Positions 2,603 to 49,662 of a stretch of DNA of 49,662 nt are shown here, in pieces; positions within the stretch are counted from its first letter, which is position 1; every line of letters starts with the position of its first letter. The DNA is taken from the sequence record OM475428; one strand, written 5' to 3'. A program made the translations under genes and the position numbers. Under the pieces are notes generated by a model. That model saw nothing but the letters and a program-made list of their open reading frames with translations, was not told where the DNA came from and did no database searches. The stretch comes from Escherichia phage 1W.

Positions 2603-4191
2603 AACGAACGCCTGTCCTGATTGATGTGAACGGCGTTCCGCTTCGTGAGAGTCTCAGCTACAACGGGGGCGGTGCAGGATTTGGCGGGCAAATGGCTGAG
2701 TGGTTGCCACCGGCGCAGAGTGCCGATGCGGCCCTGCTGCCCGCGTTGCGTCTGGGGAATGCCCGGGCAGATGATCTGGTGCGCAATAACGGAATAGCGG
2801 CTAATGCGGTGGCTCTGCATAAGGATCACATTGTCGGGCATATGTTTCTGATCAGCTACCGTCCGAACTGGCGCTGGCTGGGGATGCGGGAGACCGCAGC
2901 AAAAAGCTTTGTCGATGAGGTGGAGGCGGCCTGGTCGGAATACGCCGAAGGGATGTTTGGCGAGATCGACGTGGAAGGAAAACGCACGTTCACGGAATTT
3001 ATCCGTGAAGGTGTGGGCGTTCATGCGTTTAACGGCGAAATCTTTGTGCAGCCGGTCTGGGATACGGAAACCACGCAGTTATTCCGTACGCGTTTTAAAG
3101 CCGTGAGTCCGAAACGGGTGGACACGCCTGGACACGGTATGGGGAACCCTTTTCTGCGGGCCGGTGTGGAGGTCGATCGATATGGCCGTGCCGTCGCGTA
3201 CCATATCTGTGAGGATGATTTTCCGTTCTCTGGTAGTGGACGATGGGAACGGATCCCGCGTGAACTTCCCACCGGGCGTCCGGCCATGTTGCATATTTTC
3301 GAGCCGGTGGAGGACGGGCAGACCCGTGGGGCTAATCAGTTTTACAGCGTCATGGAACGGCTGAAGATGCTCGATTCCCTGCAGGCAACACAGCTTCAGT
3401 CGGCCATAGTGAAGGCGATGTATGCAGCGACGATTGAAAGTGAACTTGATACCGAAAAGGCCTTTGAATATATCGCCGGCGCGCCACAGGAGCAGAAGGA
3501 TAATCCGCTTATTAATATTCTGGAGAAGTTTTCCAGCTGGTATGACACGAATAACGTGACACTGGGCGGTGTCAAAATTCCGCACCTTTTCCCTGGTGAT
3601 GATCTGAAACTACAGACTGCGCAGGATTCAGACAATGGATTTTCTGCGCTTGAACAGGCGCTGCTGCGGTATATCGCCGCCGGTCTTGGCGTTTCCTACG
3701 AACAGTTGTCCCGTGATTACTCGAAGGTCAGTTACTCAAGTGCCCGCGCCTCCGCCAATGAGTCGTGGCGCTATTTTATGGGGCGGCGAAAATTTATTGC
3801 GGCCCGGCTGGCCACGCAGATGTTTTCCTGCTGGCTGGAAGAGGCACTTCTTCGGGGGATTATTCGTCCGCCACGGGCACGTTTTGATTTTTATCAGGCG
3901 CGATCAGCCTGGTCACGGGCAGAGTGGATTGGTGCCGGAAGAATGGCCATTGACGGGCTCAAGGAAGTCCAGGAATCAGTGATGCGCATTGAGGCCGGAC
4001 TGAGCACGTATGAGAAAGAGCTGGCGCTGATGGGCGAGGATTATCAGGACATTTTCCGCCAGCAGGTCAGGGAATCTGCTGAGCGGCAAAAAGCCGGACT
4101 CTCACGTCCGGTGTGGATAGCGCAGGCGTATCAGCAGCAGATAGCGGAGAGTCGTAGGCCGGAAGAGGAGACAACACCACGTGAGACGTAA
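2599..4191 (+). CDS. B: Portal protein (gpB)
   Basis: About 530 aa with strong similarity to lambda gpB from recall (NGGGAGFGGQ, FEPVEDGQTRGAN, MAIDGLKEVQE). Start MKRTPV chosen within the listed ORF. Confidence 0.9.
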   Translation: MKRTPVLIDVNGVPLRESLSYNGGGAGFGGQMAEWLPPAQSADAALLPALRLGNARADDLVRNNGIAANAVALHKDHIVGHMFLISYRPNWRWLGMRETAAKSFVDEVEAAWSEYAEGMFGEIDVEGKRTFTEFIREGVGVHAFNGEIFVQPVWDTETTQLFRTRFKAVSPKRVDTPGHGMGNPFLRAGVEVDRYGRAVAYHICEDDFPFSGSGRWERIPRELPTGRPAMLHIFEPVEDGQTRGANQFYSVMERLKMLDSLQATQLQSAIVKAMYAATIESELDTEKAFEYIAGAPQEQKDNPLINILEKFSSWYDTNNVTLGGVKIPHLFPGDDLKLQTAQDSDNGFSALEQALLRYIAAGLGVSYEQLSRDYSKVSYSSARASANESWRYFMGRRKFIAARLATQMFSCWLEEALLRGIIRPPRARFDFYQARSAWSRAEWIGAGRMAIDGLKEVQESVMRIEAGLSTYEKELALMGEDYQDIFRQQVRESAERQKAGLSRPVWIAQAYQQQIAESRRPEEETTPRET

Positions 4192-5686
4192 TCTTTCACA
4201 CATTATTGCCGCAGCATTCAATGAACCGCTGCTTCTGGAGCCCGCCTATGCGCGGGTTTTCTTTTGCGCGCTCGGGCGCGAGATGGGGGCAGCAAGTCTT
4301 TCGGTACCACAACAGCAGGTACAGTTTGATGCTCTCGGAATGCTGGCTGAAACGGACGAGTACATGGCCGGAGGTAAACGACCGGCCCGTGTTTACAGGG
4401 TGGTGAACGGTATTGCTGTACTGCCGGTGACCGGCACGCTGGTGCACCGGCTGGGTGGTATGCGGCCATTTTCCGGAATGACAGGCTATGACGGTATTGT
4501 CGCCTGTCTTCAGCAGGCAATGGCGGATAGCCAGGTGCGGGGCGTACTGCTGGACATTGACAGTCCGGGCGGGCAGGCCGCCGGCGCGTTTGACTGCGCT
4601 GACATGATTTACCGCCTCCGTCAGCAGAAGCCGGTCTGGGCACTGTGCAATGACACGGCCTGTTCTGCAGCCATGCTGCTGGCGTCGGCCTGCTCCCGAC
4701 GGCTGGTTACCCAGACATCCCGTATCGGTTCCATTGGCGTGATGATGAGCCATGTCAGCTATGCCGGTCATCTGGCGCAGGCCGGTGTGGATATCACGCT
4801 GATTTACTCAGGGGCGCACAAGGTGGATGGCAATCAGTTTGAAGCGTTGCCGGCAGAGGTTCGCCAGGACATGCAGCAGCGGATTGATGCGGCGCGCCGG
4901 ATGTTTGCCGAAAAAGTGGCGATGTTTACCGGTCTGTCTGTTGATGCAGTCACAGGAACAGAGGCCGCTGTTTTTGAAGGTCAGTCCGGCATTGAGGCCG
5001 GGCTGGCGGATGAATTAATCAATGCGTCGGATGCCATCAGTGTGATGGCCACGGCGCTGAACAGTAATGTCAGAGGAGGCACTATGCCGCAATTAACTGC
5101 AACGGAAGCCGCCGCGCAGGAGAACCAGCGAGTGATGGGGATCCTGACATGCCAGGAAGCGAAAGGACGTGAACAGCTTGCCACGATGCTGGCAGGACAA
5201 CAGGGCATGAGCGTTGAACAGGCCCGGGCGATTCTGGCCGCGGCGGCACCGCAGCAGCCGGTGGCATCCACGCAGAGTGAAGCCGATCGCATTATGGCGT
5301 GTGAAGAAGCGAACGGTCGTGAACAACTGGCGGCAACGCTGGCGGCGATGCCGGAGATGACGGTGGAAAAAGCCCGCCCGATCCTGGCTGCTTCACCGCA
5401 GGCGGATGCCGGACCATCACTCCGTGATCAGATCATGGCACTGGATGAGGCAAAAGGGGCTGAGGTGCAGGCTGAACAGCTGGCTGCCTGCCCGGGAATG
5501 ACTGTGGAGTGCGCCCGGGCTGTGCTGGCTGCGGGATCAGGTAAGGCAGAACCGGTCTCTGCATCCACAACCGCCATGTTTGAACATTTCATGGCGAACC
5601 ATTCACCGGCAGCGGTACAGGGTGGCGTGCCACAGACGTCAGCAGACGGTGATGCGGACGTGAAAATGCTCATGGCCATGCCATGA
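4181..5686 (+). CDS. C: Head maturation protease / scaffold (gpC with nested Nu3-like C-terminal region)
   Basis: N-terminal two thirds match lambda gpC (ClpP/S49-like; AFNEPLLLEPAYARVFF, VWALCNDTACSAA). GTG start overlaps the B stop. C-terminus carries three tandem copies of an approximately 45-aa motif. Confidence 0.85.
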   Translation: MRRNLSHIIAAAFNEPLLLEPAYARVFFCALGREMGAASLSVPQQQVQFDALGMLAETDEYMAGGKRPARVYRVVNGIAVLPVTGTLVHRLGGMRPFSGMTGYDGIVACLQQAMADSQVRGVLLDIDSPGGQAAGAFDCADMIYRLRQQKPVWALCNDTACSAAMLLASACSRRLVTQTSRIGSIGVMMSHVSYAGHLAQAGVDITLIYSGAHKVDGNQFEALPAEVRQDMQQRIDAARRMFAEKVAMFTGLSVDAVTGTEAAVFEGQSGIEAGLADELINASDAISVMATALNSNVRGGTMPQLTATEAAAQENQRVMGILTCQEAKGREQLATMLAGQQGMSVEQARAILAAAAPQQPVASTQSEADRIMACEEANGREQLAATLAAMPEMTVEKARPILAASPQADAGPSLRDQIMALDEAKGAEVQAEQLAACPGMTVECARAVLAAGSGKAEPVSASTTAMFEHFMANHSPAAVQGGVPQTSADGDADVKMLMAMP

Positions 5687-39285: not shown

Positions 39286-39618
39286 ATGAACCCTTATATT
39301 TATCTTGGTGGTGCAATACTTGCAGAGGTCATTGGTACAACCTTAATGAAGTTTTCAGAAGGTTTTACACGGTTATGGCCATCTGTTGGTACAATTATTT
39401 GTTATTGTGCATCATTCTGGTTATTAGCTCAGACGCTGGCTTATATACCTACAGGGATTGCTTATGCTATCTGGTCAGGAGTCGGTATTGTCCTGATTAG
39501 CTTACTATCATGGGGATTTTTCGGCCAACGGTTGGACCTGCCAGCCATTATAGGCATGATGTTGATTTGTGCCGGTGTGTTGGTTATTAATTTATTGTCA
39601 CGAAGCACACCACATTAA
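39286..39618 (+). CDS. emrE: SMR-family multidrug efflux protein EmrE
   Basis: 110 aa from MNPYIYLGGAILAEVIGTTLMKFSEGF; matches E. coli EmrE (encoded in the DLP12 prophage) from recall; four TM helices. Confidence 0.9.
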   Translation: MNPYIYLGGAILAEVIGTTLMKFSEGFTRLWPSVGTIICYCASFWLLAQTLAYIPTGIAYAIWSGVGIVLISLLSWGFFGQRLDLPAIIGMMLICAGVLVINLLSRSTPH

Positions 39619-39873
39619 AAATAATTTATTTTTAAACGACTAAAATATGGAGGTTCGTATATTTGTATGGGCCTCGTTTTATGCTTTTTGTTAATGTCTT
39701 TAGTTTTTATTCATTCTTTTGATCTTTCAAGACCATGGTGTAAGAAAATTGCAATACGATTATTGTTGTATATTCAAGATAATGTGACCTTAATTGTCTT
39801 TTTAAATAAAAATTAAACAAAAATCATATCTCACCACTAAGGTTTATAAAAGCATACTTTAGCAGGTGTCACC

Positions 39874-41400
39874 ATGAAAAAAGCCATAGCATATATGCGA
39901 TTTTCATCACCAGGTCAGATGTCTGGTGATTCATTAAACCGCCAGAGAAGGCTTATTACTGAATGGCTAAAGGTAAATAGTGATTATTACCTTGATACCG
40001 TAACGTATGAAGATTTGGGGTTAAGCGCATTCAATGGAAAGCATGCACAATCAGGAGCTTTTTCGGAATTTTTAGATGCTATAGAACATGGTTACATATT
40101 GCCAGGGACTACATTGTTAGTTGAAAGTCTGGACAGACTTTCAAGAGAAAAAGTCGGTGAAGCGATTGAGCGTCTGAAATTGATTTTGAATCACGGTATT
40201 GATGTTATAACTCTTTGCGATAATACAGTCTATAATATAGACTCATTGAATGAGCCATATTCATTAATAAAAGCCATACTTATAGCACAAAGGGCAAATG
40301 AAGAAAGCGAGATAAAGTCAAGTCGGGTTAAATTATCATGGAAGAAAAAACGGCAGGATGCACTGGAATCAGGCACGATTATGACGGCGTCTTGTCCGAG
40401 ATGGCTCTCATTGGATGACAAAAGAACAGCTTTTATTCCAGACCCCGACAGGGTGAAAACGATTGAGCTAATTTTTAAACTCAGGATGGAAAGGCGATCA
40501 TTGAATGCAATAGCTAAGTATTTAAATGATCATGCTGTAAAAAATTTTTCAGGAAAAGAAAGTGCATGGGGGCCTTCTGTAATTGAAAAATTATTAGCGA
40601 ATAAAGCTCTGATAGGTATATGCGTACCTTCATATCGTGCAAGAGGGAAAGGGATAAGTGAAATCGCTGGCTATTATCCCAGAGTCATATCAGATGATTT
40701 GTTTTACGCTGTACAGGAAATTCGGTTGGCACCTTTTGGTATTAGCAATAGTAGCAAGAATCCTATGCTAATAAATCTACTTCGAACAGTTATGAAGTGT
40801 GAGGCTTGTGGTAATACCATGATTGTTCATGCGGTATCTGGACGTTTGCATGGCTATTATGTTTGTCCGATGAGAAGATTACATCGATGTGACAGGCCAT
40901 CAATAAAAAGAGATTTGGTTGATTATAATATCATTAATGAATTGCTTTTTAATTGTAGCAAAATTCAACCAGTTGAAAACAAGAAAGATGCTAATGAAAC
41001 TTTAGAGTTAAAAATTATTGAGCTTCAGATGAAAATTAATAATTTAATCGTTGCATTGTCTGTCGCGCCTGAAGTTACCGCTATAGCAGAGAAAATAAGA
41101 CTATTAGATAAGGAATTACGAAGGGCTTCGGTATCATTAAAAACTTTGAAGAGTAAAGGGGTGAGTTCACTTGGTGATTTTCATGCTATTGATTTAACCA
41201 GTAAAAATGGGCGAGAGCTATGTCGTACACTTGCCTATAAAATATTCGAAAAAATTATAATTAATACAGATAATAAAACCTGTGATATCTATTTTATGAA
41301 TGGCATTGTTTTTAAACACTATCCTTTAATGAAAGTAATATCCGCCCAGCAGGCGATAAGTACTCTTAAATATATGGTTGATGGTGAGGTTTATTTTTGA
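39874..41400 (+). CDS. ybcK: Large serine recombinase (resolvase/invertase catalytic domain, recombinase domain, zinc ribbon); DLP12 YbcK-like
   Basis: 508 aa; N-terminal catalytic region with a Ser in MRFSSPGQ; Cys cluster CEACGN...CPMRRLHRC; AT-rich gene. Confidence 0.8.
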   Translation: MKKAIAYMRFSSPGQMSGDSLNRQRRLITEWLKVNSDYYLDTVTYEDLGLSAFNGKHAQSGAFSEFLDAIEHGYILPGTTLLVESLDRLSREKVGEAIERLKLILNHGIDVITLCDNTVYNIDSLNEPYSLIKAILIAQRANEESEIKSSRVKLSWKKKRQDALESGTIMTASCPRWLSLDDKRTAFIPDPDRVKTIELIFKLRMERRSLNAIAKYLNDHAVKNFSGKESAWGPSVIEKLLANKALIGICVPSYRARGKGISEIAGYYPRVISDDLFYAVQEIRLAPFGISNSSKNPMLINLLRTVMKCEACGNTMIVHAVSGRLHGYYVCPMRRLHRCDRPSIKRDLVDYNIINELLFNCSKIQPVENKKDANETLELKIIELQMKINNLIVALSVAPEVTAIAEKIRLLDKELRRASVSLKTLKSKGVSSLGDFHAIDLTSKNGRELCRTLAYKIFEKIIINTDNKTCDIYFMNGIVFKHYPLMKVISAQQAISTLKYMVDGEVYF

Positions 41401-41724: not shown

Positions 41725-41751
41725 AGCCCGCATAAGTGCGGGCTGCTTTTT
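41725..41751. terminator. Bidirectional hairpin terminator between ybcK and the convergent hydrolase gene
   Basis: Stem agcccgca / tgcgggct followed by gcttttt on the plus strand; abuts the hydrolase stop on the minus strand. Confidence 0.6.
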
Positions 41752-42793
41752 ACAGGTCAGCGTTTGTTTTTTGTTGTTGGGTAGCGGTTTTTATGGGGGT
41801 TCCCAGGTTTTTAGTAAACCACTCAACAACTCTGTTTATAATAATTGGCTGATACCATGTATTATCGCCATGCTCGGCCCCTTCTACCAGCACGTACTCA
41901 GCGTTATCACCGTTCTTCTTCAACATCCTGAATAGTTTGGCGCTTTGCTCAGGTGAAACCAGAGTGTCTTTGCTACCATGCATAATAAGAAATGGGGGTT
42001 TTACTCCTTTCATATGTCCGATTGGACTGGCGTTTAGCGCTTTTTCTTTTGACGCTGTGATGGGGGCTCCCGCAAAATTTCTGAATGCAGGGCCATTGAT
42101 CATTAAGGCTTCGGTTACGGCAGGAGAGCGATGAACCTCCTGCACTGATTCAGGGAACCCCTCGCCAATATTCAACAAGTCAGAAATCCCATAAAGTGTG
42201 GCAACTGCCTGAACATCTGAGGATTGCTGAAGAAAGTCACCTTTATCAAAGGTTTTGTCACCATTTGTAGTTCCCATCATCTGGGCAAGCCATCCACCGG
42301 CAGAGTCACCCAGAACTCCGATTCTTTGAGGATCAATCCCATAATTGCTGGCATGCTCTCTCAGGTAACGTATTGCAGCTTTTCCATCCTCAACTGGTGC
42401 TGGAAATGTATCAGGAATTGTTCTGTATTCTACAGCGGCCACAACAAAACCAGCTTCTGCCAGAGCCATTCTCATTTCAATAAATTTGTCATGTTCAGAA
42501 GACATGAATCCGCCGCCGGGATAATAAATAATGGCTGGTTTTAAATCATTTGTTCGCGGGACAAGAACTGACATGTGAAGCTGTCTGACAGAACGAGTTC
42601 CTTTTATCTGGGAATAAACAACATCACCAATGAGATCGACCTGGTTTCTGGTCGGTGAAACACTAATGATATCTGCACCCGGGGTGTAACCAGGAAGATT
42701 AGTCTGGACAGGTGTTGCACAACTCCCGACCGACATGGCCATTGACATACCATACAATAGTGTTGCAGATGATAATATCTTGTTAATTTTCAT
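41750..42793 (-). CDS. Secreted/lipoprotein alpha/beta-hydrolase (esterase/lipase family)
   Basis: 347 aa; signal peptide with a Cys (MSVGSC); oxyanion-hole motif YYPGGGF; nucleophile elbow GDSAGG. Confidence 0.75.
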   Translation of the reverse strand: MKINKILSSATLLYGMSMAMSVGSCATPVQTNLPGYTPGADIISVSPTRNQVDLIGDVVYSQIKGTRSVRQLHMSVLVPRTNDLKPAIIYYPGGGFMSSEHDKFIEMRMALAEAGFVVAAVEYRTIPDTFPAPVEDGKAAIRYLREHASNYGIDPQRIGVLGDSAGGWLAQMMGTTNGDKTFDKGDFLQQSSDVQAVATLYGISDLLNIGEGFPESVQEVHRSPAVTEALMINGPAFRNFAGAPITASKEKALNASPIGHMKGVKPPFLIMHGSKDTLVSPEQSAKLFRMLKKNGDNAEYVLVEGAEHGDNTWYQPIIINRVVEWFTKNLGTPIKTATQQQKTNADL

Positions 42794-44149: not shown

Positions 44150-44508
44150 ATACCTACAGCATCACATTACCCTGGCCGCCGAGCAATAATCGCTATTACC
44201 GCCATAATCGCGGACGCACGCATATCAGCGCAGAGGGGCAGGCATACCGCGATAATGTCGCCCGAATCATTAAAAACGCAATGCTGGATATCGGCCTGGC
44301 TATTCCTGTGAAAATCAGCATTGAGTGCCACATGCCGGATCGCCGTCGCCGTGACCTTGATAATCTGCAAAAGGCCGCTTTTGACGCACTCACCAAAGCA
44401 GGTTTCTGGCTGGATGATGCTCAGGTCGTTGATTACCGCGTTGTGAAGATGCCCGTTACCAAAGGTGGGAAGCTGGAGCTGACTATCACTGAACTGGGAG
44501 ATGAATGA
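44146..44508 (+). CDS. rusA: Holliday junction resolvase RusA
   Basis: 120 aa; near-identical to E. coli RusA from recall ([26 protein letters not shown]). Confidence 0.9.
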
Positions 44509-44645
44509 TGTTTGAGTCTTATATGGCAGAGCGTCTTCGCCGCCGCTGGGTGCGCCTGCGCTTATATCGTTTTCCTGGTTCTGTTTTGACCGATTACCGA
44601 ATACTGAAGAATTACGCCAAAACCCTGACAGGAGCAGGAGTATGA
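44505..44645 (+). CDS. ylcG: YlcG-like small protein
   Basis: 46-aa ORF ([26 protein letters not shown]) overlapping the rusA stop, at the position of DLP12 ylcG. Confidence 0.55.
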
Positions 44646-44730
44646 AGTCAGAGATAACAATCAACTAATACTGTTTTGTTGATTTTTGCTTGTAATTGGC
44701 GTTCTGGTCTGATTTTTGTGGAGTAAGTTG

Positions 44731-45114
44731 ATGCGTGATATTCAGATGGTTCTTGAGCGTTGGGGAGCGTGGGCGGCTAATAATCATGAAGATGTGACCT
44801 GGTCGTCCGTTGCCGCCGGTTTTAAGGGATTAATTCCTTCAAAAGTAAAATCTCGCCCGCAATGTTGTGACGATGACGCGATGATCATTTGCGGGTGCAT
44901 GGCCCGTCTGAAAAAGAACAACAGCGATTTACACGATTTATTAGTAGATTATTATGTATGTGGTATGACATTCATGTCACTGGCAAGTAAGCATTGCTGC
45001 TCGGATGGTTATATCGGGAAAAGGTTACAGAAGGCTGAGGGCATAATTGAAGGGATGTTAATGGCATTAGATATCCGGTTAGATATGGATATCGTTGCTA
45101 ATAATTCTAATTGA
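44731..45114 (+). CDS. quuD: Late gene antiterminator Q (Q82/QuuD-like)
   Basis: About 127 aa from [16 protein letters not shown]; Cys-rich zinc-binding region; last gene before the late promoter region. Confidence 0.8.
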
Positions 45115-45251
45115 TATGCAATTGTTTACTAAAAGTTATTAAAAATGGGGCGTGGAAACGCCCCCAAAATAAAGGGTAATATATAACAGAAGGTTTATAT
45201 AGTAAGAAGCAAGGTAGTGCTTCTAAAGGAAGTGGCTTGAGGGCTCCACTT
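45115..45251 (+). promoter_or_regulatory. Late promoter PR' / qut region (inferred)
   Basis: AT-rich segment between Q and the tR'-like hairpin; position inferred by analogy with lambda; promoter elements not pinpointed. Confidence 0.4.
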
Positions 45252-45291
45252 ATATGTTGCGGAGGCAAAGCCTCCCGCAACATATCTTTTT
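45252..45291 (+). terminator. tR'-like intrinsic terminator downstream of Q
   Basis: Perfect 14-bp stem atatgttgcggagg / cctcccgcaacatat followed by cttttt. Confidence 0.7.
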
Positions 45292-45302
45292 CGTAAGTCA
45301 GA

Positions 45303-46385
45303 TTAGAACTGATAAACCAGACCTACAGCGACGATGTCGTCGGTATCAATACCAGCTGTTTTGGTAAACTTACTATCGTCAATTAAGTTGATTTTGTAAT
45401 CAACAAAAGTGGACATGTTTTTATTAAAGTAGTAAGTAGCACCGACATCGACATACTTGACTAAGTCTCGGTCACCATGAACACCAAGGTCTTTACCTTT
45501 TGACTGAAGGTAAGCAACAGATGGTCGCAGACCGAAGTCAAACTGATATTGTGCTACTGCTTCAAAGTTTTGTGCTTTGTTTGCAATATGGTTATTACCA
45601 AAAACGGTCATATTCTGAGTTTCAGAATATGTGGTAGCCAGATAGATATTGTTCGCATCATATTTCAGGCCTGCAGCCCATACTTCCGCATTTTTGCCGG
45701 AGGCATTGAATTTGCTCTTACCATAGGCGACCTGACCGTCAGTGCGATCTGATTTAGCATAGGTTGCACCCACGCCGAATCCTTCATACTCATAAGTAGT
45801 GGAGAAACCGAAACCATCACCATTGACTTCAGTTACGTCAGTGCGGTCATTTTTACCCTGATACTGAGCAGCAAAGTTCAGGCCATCGACCAGACCAAAG
45901 AAGTCGTTGTTACGATAAGTTGCAACACCAGTAGTGCGACCAGTCATGAACACATCTGTTTGGGTCCAGGTATCACCACCGAATTCTGGCAGGACGTCAG
46001 TCCACGCACCGATGTCGTATGCTACACCGTAGTTACGGCCGTAATCGATTGAGCCGTAATCACCAAATTTCAGGCCTGCAAATGCAAGACGGGTTTTGTC
46101 TTTGGAAGAACCTTGAGATTCAGCACGGTTGCCTTTGAATTCATATTCCCACTGACCGAAACCAGTCAGTTGATCGTTGATTTGGGTTTCACCTTTGAAG
46201 CCAAGACGGGCATAAGTAGTATCACCATCATCTGCATCATTAGAGGAGAAGTAGTGCTTGGCATTAACTTTCCCGTATAGATCCAGCTTGTTACTGTCTT
46301 TATTATAAATTTCAGCTGCCTGAGCAGACATCGCCATCAGTACTGATGCAGCTACAGCAGAAATTGCCACTGTTAATTTTTTCAT
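45303..46385 (-). CDS. nmpC: Outer membrane porin (OmpC/OmpF/NmpC-Lc family) with signal peptide
   Basis: 360 aa; signal peptide ending AQA-AEIYNK; C-terminal aromatic residue (VYQF); the position between Q and lysis genes matches DLP12 nmpC and PA-2 lc. Confidence 0.85.
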
Positions 46386-46812
46386 TGTACGCCCTTTTTT
46401 TTGAACTATTATTAAAAAATGATGTCACTGCGCGATAAATATTCATCTAATCAATGCGATTATTTCAAGATGTAAGTTTTAGTTTCTCATTTAATTTGTG
46501 AAGTAGATCTCTATTTTTATCTGAACCTTTTCTATCTAATCCTATTCATGGCTCTTGTTTGAACGAAAATAAATCTATTAGCTAATTTATATTAATGGCA
46601 CTTATTTATAAGCGCTCTATAATTCTTTAGCTTAATTTAAACAAACTAAAAATAACATCGGAAATTATTCATTGGTTATTTGTTGAAGTTTTCTTATGTA
46701 TTTGTGGTGGTGTTTTGAACACTCGGTGGCATTCTCACAAATATCATTTAGTAGTTTACGTACGTAAAAAATTGGTTATGCTGTTAAGAGTGGTTACTTC
46801 GTCACACAGCTT

Positions 46813-46846
46813 AAACCCGCCGTCGAGCGGGTTTTTCCATTTTTTG
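46813..46846 (+). terminator. Intrinsic terminator-like hairpin upstream of the lysis cassette
   Basis: aaacccgc cgtcga gcgggttt followed by a T-rich stretch. Confidence 0.5.
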
Positions 46847-46974
46847 AGTCTCGATATTAGCTGATAACCCAATACCTGAGTTATTCACTGACTCCGAATC
46901 TGTTACGTTTCTGCCTTTATTGCGATACGTAGTATCCCCTTAATTTACACCCGCTTTGTCTGCGAGGTGGGGTT

Positions 46975-47190
46975 ATGAAATCCATGGATAAGTTAACAAC
47001 GGGTGTCGCCTATGGCACCTCAGCAGGTAGTGCCGGGTACTGGTTTTTACAGTTGCTCGATAAAGTCACGCCCTCACAGTGGGCGGCAATAGGTGTGCTG
47101 GGTAGTCTGGTATTTGGCTTGCTGACGTATCTGACAAACCTTTATTTCAAGATTAAAGAAGATAAGCGTAAGGCTGCGAGAGGTGAATAA
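46975..47190 (+). CDS. S: Pinholin S (phage 21 S21-like)
   Basis: 71 aa; very similar to S21 from recall ([26 protein letters not shown] ... KRKAARGE); two TM domains. Confidence 0.9.
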
Positions 47191-47687
47191 TGTCGCCATC
47201 ATTACGCAAGGCTATTGCTGCTGCTATTGGTGGTGGGGCTGTTGCCATAGCGTCTGTGCTCATCACTGGTCCGAGTGGTGACGATGGCCTGGAAGGTGTC
47301 AGCTACATACCATACAAAGATATCGTTGGCGTATGGACTGTATGTCACGGACACACCGGAAAAGACATCATGCTCGGTAAAACGTATACCGAAGCAGAAT
47401 GCAAAGCCCTCCTGAATAAAGACCTTGCCACTGTCGCCAGACAAATTAACCCGTACATCAAAGTCGATATACCGGAAACAACGCGCGGCGCTCTTTACTC
47501 GTTCGTTTACAACGTGGGCGCTGGCAATTTCAGAACATCGACGCTTCTTCGCAAAATAAACCAGGGCGATATCAAAGGCGCATGTGATCAGCTACGGCGC
47601 TGGACATACGCTGGCGGTAAGCAATGGAAAGGGCTGATGACTCGCCGTGAGATTGAGCGTGAAGTCTGTTTGTGGGGGCAACAATGA
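47190..47687 (+). CDS. R: SAR endolysin (lysozyme R21-like)
   Basis: 165 aa; N-terminal signal-anchor-release segment ([18 protein letters not shown]); T4-lysozyme-like core; overlaps the S stop. Confidence 0.9.
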
Positions 47688-48127
47688 GCAGAGTAACCGC
47701 GATTATCTCCGCTCTGGTTATCTGCATCATCGTCTGCCTGTCATGGGCTGTTAATCATTACCGTGATAACGCCATCGCCTACAAAGAGCAGCGCGACAAA
47801 GCCGCATCTACTATCGCTGACATGCAGAAGCGTCAACGTGATGTAGCAGAACTCGACGCCAGATACACAAAGGAGCTTGCTGATGCTAACGCGACTATCG
47901 AAAGTCTACGTGCTGATGTTTTTGCTGGTCGTAAGTGGCTGCGCGTCAAAGCAGTCTGTCCGGACATGCATAAAACCACCGCCGCCTCCGGCGTGGATGA
48001 TGGTGCCAGCCCCAGACTTACTGACACCGCTCAACGGGATTATTTCGTTCTCAGAGAGCGCATCGAAACCGTAACTAACCAATTGAATGGTCTGCAAGAG
48101 TATGTGAGATCACAGTGTTCATATTAG
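47684..48127 (+). CDS. Rz: Spanin inner-membrane subunit Rz
   Basis: N-terminal TM helix then coiled coil; start MSRVTAII chosen; overlaps the R stop. Confidence 0.85.
47883..48074 (+). CDS. Rz1: Spanin outer-membrane lipoprotein Rz1, embedded in the +1 frame of Rz
   Basis: Signal peptide with lipobox LVVSGC followed by a Pro-rich segment (PPPPPAW) typical of Rz1; entirely within Rz. Confidence 0.8.
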
Positions 48128-48165
48128 AAAAGTCTTATCATAAGATTTTTGTATATGGATGCATT

Positions 48166-48540
48166 ATGTCTCAATACGCTCAAGCCGCTTTAAATGCTTA
48201 TCAATTGGTTGCTCATAACTCAATGTCTCCTCGTGATGCATGGGAGGCTGCTGTCGCTGAGGTTACAGAAAGCGAATCGGCAAGAAAGAAGGGATGCCCA
48301 AGGGCAACGTTTCTCGCTCTGGCGGATAGCGGTTATCTGAAGAATGTAAAACAACATCATGGGGAGAAAAAGATCGGTAAGTTGTACCAAAGGGCAATTG
48401 AAGTTGCGAATCTGATTCTTGATTTACCCGGAATTAGCAAAGCTGAGCTAGTTGATAAAACTTGCTATAAAGACAGGCAAGGGTCTTATGACATTGCTCT
48501 AACTCTCGCTCAGCACGGATTACTCCAGCGTCCTCAATAA
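48166..48540 (+). CDS. Hypothetical protein between lysis genes and cos
   Basis: ORF with ATG at 48166 (MSQYAQAAL); the track's upstream extension starts at GTG; no family recognised. Confidence 0.45.
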   Translation: MSQYAQAALNAYQLVAHNSMSPRDAWEAAVAEVTESESARKKGCPRATFLALADSGYLKNVKQHHGEKKIGKLYQRAIEVANLILDLPGISKAELVDKTCYKDRQGSYDIALTLAQHGLLQRPQ

Positions 48541-49131: not shown

Positions 49132-49297
49132 ATGAAGGTTAATAAAAAGAGGCTTGCCGAAATTTTCAACGTGGACCCGCGGACGATTGAACGCTGGCAG
49201 TCTCAGGGACTCCCTTGCGCCTCCAAAGGTAGTAAGGGCATTGAATCTGTATTTGATACTGCCATGGCAATTCAGTGGTATGCGCAGAGGGAAACTG
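49132..49297 (+). CDS. nu1: Terminase small subunit, 5' portion (continues at window position 1; the gene wraps around the circular contig)
   Basis: [28 protein letters not shown]...; 49169-49297 is identical to window 1-129. Confidence 0.85.

Positions 49298-49662
<365 letters not shown>

What the first reader, a model, noticed from the sequence alone, without database searches (positions are those of the whole stretch)
45115..46385. Porin gene encoded antisense to late transcription between Q and the lysis cassette
A full-length OmpC/OmpF-family porin with signal peptide is encoded on the minus strand directly after a strong tR'-like terminator downstream of Q. Q-modified late transcription must therefore read antisense through the porin gene to reach S-R-Rz, implying mutually exclusive expression: porin in lysogens, lysis genes after induction. 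Phage porins such as Lc of PA-2 alter the outer membrane and can exclude other phages.
Basis: partly seen in the sequence, partly recalled or inferred. Interest (0 to 1): 0.4.

Follow-up and report, generated by a model that had tools for sequence, protein, structure and literature searches.

The report
Known phage porin, outside late transcription

Summary
The porin is real: 45303..46385 (-), 360 aa, full-length Porin_1 (E=3e-151), 23-aa signal peptide. It is 91.9% identical to Lc of phage PA-2 and to NmpC of the K-12 DLP12 prophage. The Q-porin-S stretch (44600-47300) is 100% identical to deposited phages 4A7, Lambda_4C10 and 3W, where the porin is already annotated. At least 80% of the Q-porin-S segment occurs in 2358 of 5426 complete E. 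coli genomes.

The Q protein here is of the 82/933W/H-19B type. Its cognate late promoter module aligns to 46752-46836, between the porin start and holin S. That module comprises a -35 at 46755-60, a -10 at 46777-82, an inferred +1 near 46787 and tR' at 46813-46845. Relative to 933W, 1.7 kb carrying the porin lies between the body of Q and pR'.

In 120 viral contigs carrying this pR' motif, the porin always lies upstream of it. Cargo between Q and pR' is 96% reverse-oriented, and cargo after tR' is 95% forward-oriented.

The 188-bp Q-porin spacer holds two facing terminators: one on the minus strand for the porin, one terminator-like on the plus strand. It matches the DLP12 spacer from which the IpeX sRNA is reported to be made.

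Verdict: an already known, ordinary lysogenic-conversion moron.

The parts
44731..45114 (+). Late antiterminator Q (QuuD/82/933W type, 127 aa)
   Evidence: Pfam Phage_antitermQ E=1.1e-53. It is 77-80% identical to the Q proteins of 933W and H-19B, and the similarity is lost after about residue 120. The same start is annotated in phages 3W and 4A7.
45141..45302 (-). Porin 3' UTR, the region homologous to the DLP12/PA-2 nmpC(lc)-quuD spacer from which the 167-nt IpeX sRNA is reported to be processed
   Evidence: The alignment spanning this spacer (window 45100-45310) has 96% mean column identity to K-12 DLP12 and PA-2. Five hairpins fold at -56.6 kcal/mol, z=-5.55. From the stop codon to the end of the U-run is 162 nt. 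PMC12197685 reports ipeX as 167 nt, from DLP12, made as part of the porin transcript and then processed. The exact IpeX ends were not verified here.
45141..45164 (-). Intrinsic terminator of the porin/IpeX transcript (GGGGCGUUUCCACGCCCC + AUUUUU)
   Evidence: Found by the terminator scan on the minus strand. Fold energy is -13.8 kcal/mol. The U-run is on the minus strand only, and the + strand reads CAAAAUAA after the stem.
45252..45291 (+). Plus-strand terminator-like hairpin facing Q (15-bp bulged stem + C-UUUUU). On the minus strand the same stem is the first hairpin of the porin 3' UTR.
   Evidence: dG -21.9 kcal/mol, z=-6.13. It is conserved in all 20 distinct 3' UTR variants. No pR'-like promoter lies upstream of it.
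45303..46385 (-). Porin gene (Lc/NmpC allele, 360 aa; signal peptide encoded at 46317-46385)
   Evidence: It is 91.9% identical to PA-2 Lc and to K-12 NmpC rebuilt without IS5. The differences are concentrated in a few short segments of the C-terminal two-thirds, with two indels.
46386..46750 (-). AT-rich (27-40% GC) porin upstream region holding the porin promoter. The CRP site annotated in PA-2 corresponds to about 46494-46514 (TGTGA-N6-TCTCT).
   Evidence: Composition. The PA-2 annotation is, mapped by the offset of the match. In K-12, deleting -199..-1 of nmpC, or blocking transcription with a terminator, removes read-through into IS5 (PMC11677980). The -35/-10 elements were not resolved by consensus scans.
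46402..46435 (+). SigmaE-like promoter (TGAACTA-N16-TCACT) and the lysis-operon start site used in the DLP12 literature (A46435)
   Evidence: The primers of PMC7918800, for an amplicon stated as -121..+650, map to L005 3254 and about 4022. That puts +1 at L005:3375, which is window 46435 (with alignment A4). The sigmaE reading of the hexamers is my inference from the sequence and from the title of Rueggeberg 2015 as cited.
46755..46805 (+). Late promoter pR' with the Q-loading/pause region: -35 TTTACG 46755-60, -10 TATGCT 46777-82, inferred +1 A46787, conserved TAAGAGTGGTTAC at 46785-97
   Evidence: It aligns to the annotated pR'/qut of 933W and to H-19B. The motif is unique in the window. It is 100% identical in K-12 DLP12 and is the most conserved segment of the cassette at 0.992. 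The +1 is inferred from the Sakai TSS, 258 nt upstream of tR' (PMC7547250), and from GCC = +15-17 in 82 pR' (PMC5001585).
46813..46845 (+). tR' intrinsic terminator (AAACCCGC-CGUCGA-GCGGGUUU + UUCCAUUUUUU)
   Evidence: Found by the terminator scan on the + strand. Fold energy is -12 kcal/mol. It aligns to the first annotated terminator after pR' in 933W.
46975..48127 (+). Lysis cassette: S21-type holin 46975-47190, endolysin 47190-47687, Rz 47684-48127
   Evidence: Pfam Phage_holin_2_1, Phage_lysozyme and Phage_lysis. Annotation of 4A7 and 3W agrees.

Best explanation
The gene is an allele of the Lc/NmpC porin, a self-contained lysogenic-conversion 'moron' of lambdoid coliphages. It has its own promoter in the AT-rich region upstream (46386-46750). 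Its own minus-strand terminator sits just before the stop codon of Q. It also has a structured 3' UTR matching the DLP12 spacer that yields the IpeX sRNA, which lowers host OmpC/OmpF. The cassette (about 45064-46751) is inserted between the body of gene Q and the promoter on which Q acts. Q works in trans on pR' at 46755-46805. Late transcription starts near 46787, passes tR' (46813-46845) when Q-modified, and runs away from the porin into S-R-Rz. Porin and lysis genes are therefore divergent units that share an intergenic region. They are not a sense/antisense pair. Shown here: the identity and completeness of the porin, the homology-based position of pR'/tR', the orientation of the three terminators, and the population-wide placement of the cassette. 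Inferred: the exact +1, activity of the porin promoter in this phage, production of IpeX, and the outer-membrane or exclusion phenotype.
For: Porin identity. The Q-porin-S stretch (44600-47300) is 100% identical to phages 4A7, Lambda_4C10 and 3W, which have an annotated porin. The same gene order is found in PA-2 (J02580) and K-12 DLP12 (quuD - nmpC::IS5 - essD - rrrD - rzpD), and in 2358 of 5426 complete E. coli genomes. pR' position: window 44729-45063 matches the Q gene of 933W and window 46752-46836 matches 933W pR'-qut-terminator. These are 86 bp apart in 933W and 1688 bp apart here (annotation; alignment). The motif TAAGAGTGGTTAC occurs once in the window. It is invariant in DLP12, PA-2, mEp332 and an unrelated prophage with different cargo. 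In 120 viral contigs with the motif, Q (45-96% identical) is always upstream on the same strand. The porin, present in 34 clustered loci, always lies at about -1495..-400, and S lies at +173..+190. Cargo between Q and the motif is 96% minus-strand, and cargo between the motif and S is 95% plus-strand. Literature: the primary TSS of pR' in the Sakai Stx phages is 258 nt upstream of tR' (PMC7547250). On the Sakai sequence that falls on the AAG of the conserved motif. A DLP12 lysis-operon reporter fragment lies wholly between the nmpC 5' end and essD. The nmpC promoter is active in K-12 (PMC11677980). ipeX is made from the porin transcript and controls OmpC (PMC12197685; PMC3333887).
Against: No transcript data exist for this phage, so the +1 of pR' and the porin promoter are inferred. 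pR' is a weak consensus match (8/12), no better than four chance-level candidates between Q and the porin. Its -10-like pause element differs from that of 82/933W (TACTTC versus TACATT). In Stx phages the hairpin homologous to 46813-46834 evidently does not stop all transcripts, because the mapped tR' is a second terminator at +258. The efficiency of tR' here is therefore unknown. The receptor of this phage could not be inferred, so the exclusion function remains by analogy. From memory, some intact nmpC alleles (E. coli B) have been described as quiescent.
Confidence: 0.85

Rival explanations
1. One reading: pR' lies immediately after Q, the hairpin at 45252-45291 is tR', and Q-modified RNA polymerase transcribes antisense through the whole porin gene to reach S-R-Rz. 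Porin (lysogen) and lysis genes (induction) would then be mutually exclusive, a 'noncontiguous operon' of the kind proposed for taiEcA of phage phi80.
For: A stable hairpin followed by C-UUUUU exists on the + strand between Q and the porin. Weak sigma70-like hexamer pairs (8/12) occur at 45068-45203. In lambda, 82 and 933W, pR' does directly follow Q. The concept has been proposed for another lambdoid phage (PMC11364771).
Against: Nothing between Q and the porin resembles the pR'/Q-loading module of this Q family, and the single copy is at 46755-46805. In 76 contigs with cargo between Q and that module, homology to the window resumes only at 46750-46782 and is lost inside the 3' end of Q (about residues 110-121). 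No conserved Q-adjacent promoter therefore exists. Conservation of 45141-45302 is explained by the porin 3' UTR/IpeX. The strand bias of cargo (96% reverse upstream of pR', 95% forward downstream) is the opposite of what a read-through design predicts.
Confidence: 0.04
2. An add-on rather than an alternative: during lytic growth the early rightward operon that expresses Q reads past Q and past the 45252-45291 hairpin. This would produce RNA antisense to IpeX and the porin and collide with porin transcription, so the porin and IpeX would be turned down on induction even though late transcription does not cross them.
For: Q and the porin are convergent. Their terminators are interleaved, so the two transcripts would overlap by about 150 nt (45141-45291). 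Antiterminated early transcription ignoring intrinsic terminators is established lambda biology (from memory).
Against: No N-like gene was recognised at the expected place, so early antitermination is unverified in this phage. The + strand hairpin would stop unmodified polymerase before the porin ORF. There are no expression data.
Confidence: 0.3
3. The porin is silent cargo, intact but not expressed under normal conditions, and has no role in lysogens.
For: K-12 carries the gene inactivated by IS5, and IS insertions recur in other genomes. PMC11677980 remarks that inactivation has no growth cost. From memory, nmpC of E. coli B was described as quiescent.
Against: The ORF, signal peptide, C-terminal ...VYQF, promoter region and 3' UTR are intact. 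The 3' UTR is better conserved than the coding sequence (0.974 versus 0.943), and the first 200 bp upstream are at 0.968. The K-12 promoter is transcriptionally active. From memory, PA-2 lysogens make Lc as a major outer-membrane protein.
Confidence: 0.1

Closest known systems
lc of coliphage PA-2 (GenBank J02580; Blasband, Marcotte and Schnaitman 1986)
   Same: The protein is 91.9% identical with the same 23-aa signal peptide. It has the same reverse orientation upstream of the lysis genes, the same 3' spacer, and an upstream region 91.7% identical that includes the annotated CRP site.
   Different: There are 29 substitutions and two small deletions (3 and 2 aa), concentrated in a few short segments of the C-terminal two-thirds. 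The phage backbone differs (genus Bievrevirus).
nmpC / ipeX of the K-12 cryptic prophage DLP12 (quuD-nmpC-essD-rrrD-rzpD)
   Same: Gene order and orientation are the same. The pR'-tR' segment is 100% identical. The alignment spanning the quuD-nmpC spacer, which the literature assigns to IpeX, has 96% mean column identity.
   Different: K-12 nmpC is interrupted by IS5 58 bp before its 3' end and lacks 17 bp of the leader before essD. Here the gene is intact and sits in a phage whose Q-porin-S stretch is identical to deposited phage genome records.
Q-pR'-tR'-stx-S arrangement of Stx phages 933W, H-19B and Sakai Sp5
   Same: The Q family is the same (77-80% identity), with a homologous pR'/Q-loading/terminator module. 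Accessory genes are lodged between Q and S.
   Different: In Stx phages Q overlaps pR', and the cargo (tRNAs, stx) lies downstream of tR' in the sense orientation, so it is Q-dependent. Here the cargo lies upstream of pR' in reverse orientation, so it is Q-independent.
'Noncontiguous operon' model for taiEcA of phage phi80 (PMC11364771)
   Same: A reverse-oriented lysogeny gene lies near Q in a lambdoid phage.
   Different: That model puts the reverse gene inside the Q-controlled transcript. Here the Q-controlled promoter maps beyond the reverse gene.
Chromosomal general porins OmpC, OmpF, PhoE and Salmonella OmpD
   Same: Same family and length, with a full-length Porin_1 match.
   Different: This porin is phage-borne. 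It scores below the equivalog cut-offs for PhoE and OmpF and is named only at subfamily level.

Membership tests
General diffusion porins (Pfam Porin_1, OmpC/OmpF/PhoE) | Full-length Porin_1 domain | tested here: met
   Residues 29-360 match profile positions 1-337/337, E=3.2e-151. PDB porins align over residues 24-360.
General diffusion porins (Pfam Porin_1, OmpC/OmpF/PhoE) | Cleavable N-terminal Sec signal peptide and C-terminal aromatic residue | tested here: met
   The sequence [23 protein letters not shown]|AE is identical to the annotated sig_peptide of PA-2 Lc. Mature PDB chains start at residue 24. The protein ends ...GLVYQF.
General diffusion porins (Pfam Porin_1, OmpC/OmpF/PhoE) | 16-stranded trimeric beta-barrel forming a channel | not tested
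   Assumed from about 1e-137 sequence matches to solved porins. No structure was predicted and no conductance was measured.
Lc/NmpC phage porin moron | Close sequence relationship to Lc/NmpC | tested here: met
   91.9% identity to both proteins. Matches phrog_410 over its full length.
Lc/NmpC phage porin moron | Reverse-oriented between Q (QuuD type) and the S21-type lysis cassette | tested here: met
   The same arrangement holds in every viral contig that carries both Q and the porin.
Lc/NmpC phage porin moron | 3' UTR giving the IpeX sRNA | tested here: inconclusive
   The alignment spanning the spacer has 96% mean column identity to DLP12 and PA-2, and the length fits (162 versus 167 nt). 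No Rfam model matched. The published IpeX ends could not be read because the paper is not held. Variation is too low for a covariation test.
Lc/NmpC phage porin moron | Expression from its own promoter in lysogens, with reduction of OmpC | not testable with these tools
   Only the literature on K-12 and PA-2 is available.
82/933W-type pR'-qut-tR' late control module | Homology to a mapped or annotated pR' of the same Q family | tested here: met
   Window 46752-46836 aligns to 933W and H-19B at 78-79%. The Sakai TSS falls on the conserved motif.
82/933W-type pR'-qut-tR' late control module | -10-like sigma70 pause element at about +9..+14 with a G/C-rich discriminator | tested here: inconclusive
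   The window has TACTTC-GTC where 933W and H-19B have TACATT-GCC. This variant is shared by DLP12, PA-2 and mEp332. Pausing was not tested.
82/933W-type pR'-qut-tR' late control module | Intrinsic terminator shortly downstream, followed by late genes | tested here: met
   Hairpin 46813-46834 plus U-run. The S start codon is at +189.
   The only pR' homologue lies on the S-proximal side.

The most novel reading that the evidence does not exclude
The gap between gene Q and its target promoter pR' may be a dedicated slot for reverse-oriented, lysogen-expressed cargo in 82/933W-type lambdoid phages. The cargo seen there includes a porin, Kiwa-like pairs, a KAP NTPase, NA37-type proteins, an esterase and lipoproteins. 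The slot after tR' takes only forward, Q-dependent cargo. Placement would then be selected precisely to keep lysogeny genes out of the late transcript. The interleaved convergent terminators next to Q would let early-operon read-through, not late transcription, silence the cargo and IpeX on induction.
Probability: 0.4. Interest if true: 0.35.

Novelty: already known. Interest (0 to 1): 0.12.

Why it matters
The value of this check is mostly corrective. The porin is a textbook lysogenic-conversion gene, known as Lc/NmpC since the 1970s-80s, and its Q-porin-S stretch here is identical to deposited, annotated phage genomes.

The useful point is architectural. In this Q family the antiterminator gene and the promoter it acts on can be separated by up to about 2.5 kb of reverse-oriented cargo. 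It is therefore unsafe to assume that pR' directly follows Q when interpreting morons, including toxin and defence genes, in lambdoid prophages.

If the strand rule seen across 120 contigs holds generally, the orientation and position of cargo relative to pR'/tR' would predict whether it is expressed in lysogens or only after induction.

Tried and rejected
- **Rfam:** a search of 44400-47300 at E<=1 gave only two chance-level hits (sau-19 on the 45252-45285 hairpin, Trp_leader on tR') and no IpeX or StxS family.
- **Porin promoter:** consensus promoter scans did not resolve it. No minus-strand site reached 9/12, and my relaxed scan gave only 8/12 candidates.
- **Structure of the 3' UTR:** across 32 distinct cassettes there were 25 variable columns, mostly in loops, bulges or G-U changes, and no compensatory pair. 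The test has no power.
- **Receptor:** I tried to link the porin/IpeX to self-exclusion by identifying the phage receptor from the last 250 aa of J. The nearest phage of known receptor is lambda at 63%, so no inference is possible.
- **N-like early antiterminator:** I found none in the unannotated gap left of cI.
- **Primary papers:** the IpeX paper (Castillo-Keller 2006), Highton 1985 and Prilipov 1998 are not held. Statements about them rest on secondary citations or on memory and are marked as such.
- **Second pR' copy next to Q:** considered and rejected, because the motif is unique in the window.

Full report
**What is there**

The finding covers 45115-46385. The minus-strand ORF at 45303..46385 encodes a 360-aa protein. 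It matches Pfam Porin_1 over the whole profile (E=3.2e-151), NCBIfam 'porin OmpC' above its cut-off and the phage family phrog_410 over 360/360 positions.

Solved OmpC, OmpF, PhoE and OmpK36 chains align from residue 24 to the last residue. This places the signal-peptide cleavage after [23 protein letters not shown], exactly as annotated for Lc of phage PA-2.

Upstream on the + strand lie rusA, ylcG and a 127-aa Q antiterminator (44731..45114, Phage_antitermQ). Downstream lie an S21-type holin (46975..47190), an endolysin and Rz.

**It is a known gene in a known phage**

The 2.7-kb stretch 44600-47300 is 100% identical to Escherichia phages Lambda_4C10, 4A7 and 3W (genus Bievrevirus). In those records the gene is annotated as porin OmpC/OmpD.

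The protein is 91.9% identical to PA-2 Lc and to K-12 NmpC rebuilt by removing IS5. The differences are concentrated in a few short segments of the C-terminal two-thirds.

K-12 DLP12 has the same order: quuD, nmpC::IS5 (reverse), essD, rrrD, rzpD. At least 80% of the Q-porin-S segment is present in 2358 of 5426 complete E. coli genomes.

**Where late transcription starts**

The Q here is 77-80% identical to the Q proteins of Stx phages 933W and H-19B, so the cognate promoter can be located by homology.

A sensitive search with 46440-47000 showed that 46752-46836 matches the segment immediately after Q in about 300 Stx-phage records. In 933W this segment is annotated as pR', qut and a terminator.

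Pairwise BLAST gives two collinear blocks. Window 44729-45063 matches the 933W Q gene, and window 46752-46836 matches 933W pR'-terminator. The blocks are 86 bp apart in 933W and 1688 bp apart here.

The alignment shows these elements:
- -35 TTTACG at 46755-46760.
- -10 TATGCT at 46777-46782.
- An invariant TAAGAGTGGTTAC at 46785-46797, which occurs only once in the window.
- The hairpin AAACCCGC...GCGGGUUU plus U-run at 46813-46845, which is the only + strand terminator the scan finds near the lysis genes.

The segment is 100% identical in K-12 DLP12. It is the best conserved part of the whole cassette across 32 distinct versions, at 0.992 against 0.943 for the porin coding sequence.

Two papers fix the start point:
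- dRNA-seq in strain Sakai placed the primary pR' start 258 nt upstream of the Term-seq 3' end at tR' (PMC7547250). On the Sakai sequence this falls on the AAG of the conserved motif.
- In phage 82 pR' the GCC discriminator is at +15 to +17 (PMC5001585), which gives the same base.

By homology, +1 here is about A46787 and the S start codon is at +189. This is an inference, not a measurement.

**Independent support from the DLP12 literature**

A reporter for the DLP12 lysis operon was built from an amplicon described as -121 to +650 relative to the start site of Rueggeberg et al. 2015 (PMC7918800). I mapped its primers. The amplicon runs from inside the porin signal-peptide codons to essD.

That places their +1 at L005:3375, which is window A46435 on the + strand, 49 bp upstream of the porin start codon. 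It is preceded by TGAACTA-N16-TCACT, which I read as sigmaE-like.

So the literature also places lysis-operon initiation between the porin and S. Neither start site transcribes the porin ORF.

**Population test**

The results were:
- In every locus with a Q homologue (45-96% identical), Q is upstream on the same strand.
- The gap from the end of Q to the motif is either 42-93 bp or 630-2480 bp.
- The porin falls in one cluster of 34 loci. It always lies at about -1495..-400 on the reverse strand, with S at +173..+190.
- In the 76 loci with more than 300 bp between Q and the motif, 29050 of 30317 cargo residues (96%) are encoded on the reverse strand, in about 20 different cassettes.
- Between the motif and S (17 loci), 95% of cargo is on the forward strand.
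- Homology to the window stops at about residue 110-121 of Q and resumes at 46750-46782. The cassette junctions are therefore the 3' end of Q and the -35/-10 of pR'.

An E. coli prophage with different reverse cargo plus a forward methyltransferase shows the same layout.

This pattern is the opposite of what a design based on antisense read-through would predict. The contigs are not independent, so the number of cassette types is the fairer measure than the number of loci.

**The Q-porin spacer (45115-45302)**

The spacer is strongly structured on either strand (z about -5) and holds two facing terminators:
- 45147-45164 has its U-run on the minus strand and ends the porin transcript.
- 45252-45285 (-21.9 kcal/mol) is followed by C-UUUUU on the + strand. 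It would stop unmodified polymerase coming out of Q just before the porin ORF. It has no pR' in front of it.

The alignment spanning the spacer has 96% mean column identity to DLP12 and PA-2. Reviews state that the 167-nt IpeX sRNA of DLP12/PA-2 is made as part of the porin transcript, is processed, and lowers OmpC. The distance from the stop codon to the end of the U-run is 162 nt. I could not read the primary paper, and Rfam has no matching model, so the IpeX assignment is by homology of the region only.

**How it most likely works**

Step 1 (from the literature on K-12 and PA-2; the region is conserved here): the porin is transcribed from its own promoter in the AT-rich upstream region. Deleting -199..-1 of K-12 nmpC abolishes read-through into IS5 (PMC11677980). 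The CRP site annotated in PA-2 corresponds to about 46494-46514.

Step 2 (shown by sequence): the transcript ends at the minus-strand terminator beside Q.

Step 3 (inferred by homology): the 3' UTR yields IpeX, which lowers host OmpC/OmpF.

Step 4 (placement shown by homology, mechanism from established Q biology): on induction, Q acts in trans at pR' (46755-46805). Polymerase reads through tR' into S-R-Rz, moving away from the porin.

Any antisense RNA over the porin would have to come from early-operon read-through past Q. That is possible but unverified, because no N-like gene was found.

**Comparison and novelty**

The element is a member of the Lc/NmpC porin moron family, so it is already known. 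The defining feature of that arrangement is a Q-dependent promoter on the far side of the reverse gene. That feature was tested here and is not met.

The one observation that may go beyond the literature I could search is the strand rule for cargo on either side of pR'/tR'. I record it as a side observation, not as part of the finding.

**Verdict**

Novelty is 'already known' and interest is low.

Noticed in passing
window 45064-46751; loci L010-L129: The gap between the 3' end of Q and the -35 of pR' is a variable slot. Across 120 viral contigs it holds about 20 different cassettes, 96% reverse-oriented by residue count. They include the porin (34 loci), a KwaB-like protein with a small membrane partner, a KAP-family NTPase, NA37 nucleoid-associated-like proteins with partners, an esterase and lipoproteins. 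Cargo between tR' and S is 95% forward-oriented. The contigs are redundant, so the effective sample is the number of cassette types.
   Followed up: partly
window 46787-46845: pR' to tR' would give a leader RNA of about 55-59 nt in lysogens, the positional counterpart of the pR'-tR' transcript that is processed into the StxS sRNA in Stx phages (PMC7547250). There the effective tR' is a second terminator at +258 that is absent here. Whether the short RNA is stable or functional is unknown.
   Followed up: no
window 46402-46435 (+): A sigmaE-like promoter (TGAACTA-N16-TCACT) has its start at A46435. It was recovered by mapping published DLP12 reporter primers. It fires away from the porin but across the porin's own promoter region, so envelope stress could both drive the lysis-cassette leader and interfere with porin transcription.
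   Followed up: partly
window 41750-42793 (-): A second reverse-oriented cargo gene lies in the nin region. It is a 347-aa secreted-looking esterase (BD-FAE/Abhydrolase_3, E=5e-45) flanked by lower-GC DNA. A related esterase family also appears as Q-pR' cargo in one viral contig (L049).
   Followed up: no
window 39287-41400 (+): The early rightward operon carries a QacE-like small multidrug-resistance gene (annotated in phage 4A7) and a 508-aa serine-recombinase-family protein (39874-41400). This is unusual cargo for a lambdoid phage that also has an integrase/excisionase region.
   Followed up: no
window 49298-49662: The end of the window is not phage sequence. After ambiguous bases it reads GTGTAGATCTCGGTGGTCGCCGTATCATT, which I recognise as the reverse complement of the Illumina P5 adapter, followed by about 300 G/N. 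This is a sequencing or assembly artefact that truncates the Nu1-like ORF starting at 49132.
   Followed up: yes
L001 (OM475430.1) 3204-4347, corresponding to window 45303-46446: The phage 3W record splits the porin into two overlapping 'outer membrane porin' CDS, although its DNA is identical to the window, where the ORF is uninterrupted. This is an annotation artefact, not a frameshift.
   Followed up: yes
window 46932-46948 versus L005: K-12 DLP12 lacks 17 bp of the leader between tR' and the holin start that are present here and in PA-2. Viral contigs fall into the same two classes, with S at +173 or at +189/190.
   Followed up: partly
window 45303-46385: Differences from Lc/NmpC cluster in a few short segments of the C-terminal two-thirds, including 3-aa and 2-aa deletions. 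The N-terminal third and the barrel ends are nearly invariant. This would fit diversifying pressure on surface-exposed loops, but the segments were not mapped onto a structure.
   Followed up: no
window 48115-48540 (+): A DUF6979 protein (E=6e-31) is encoded directly after Rz, in the position where lambda-like phages often carry bor-type lysogenic-conversion genes. Its function is unknown.
   Followed up: no
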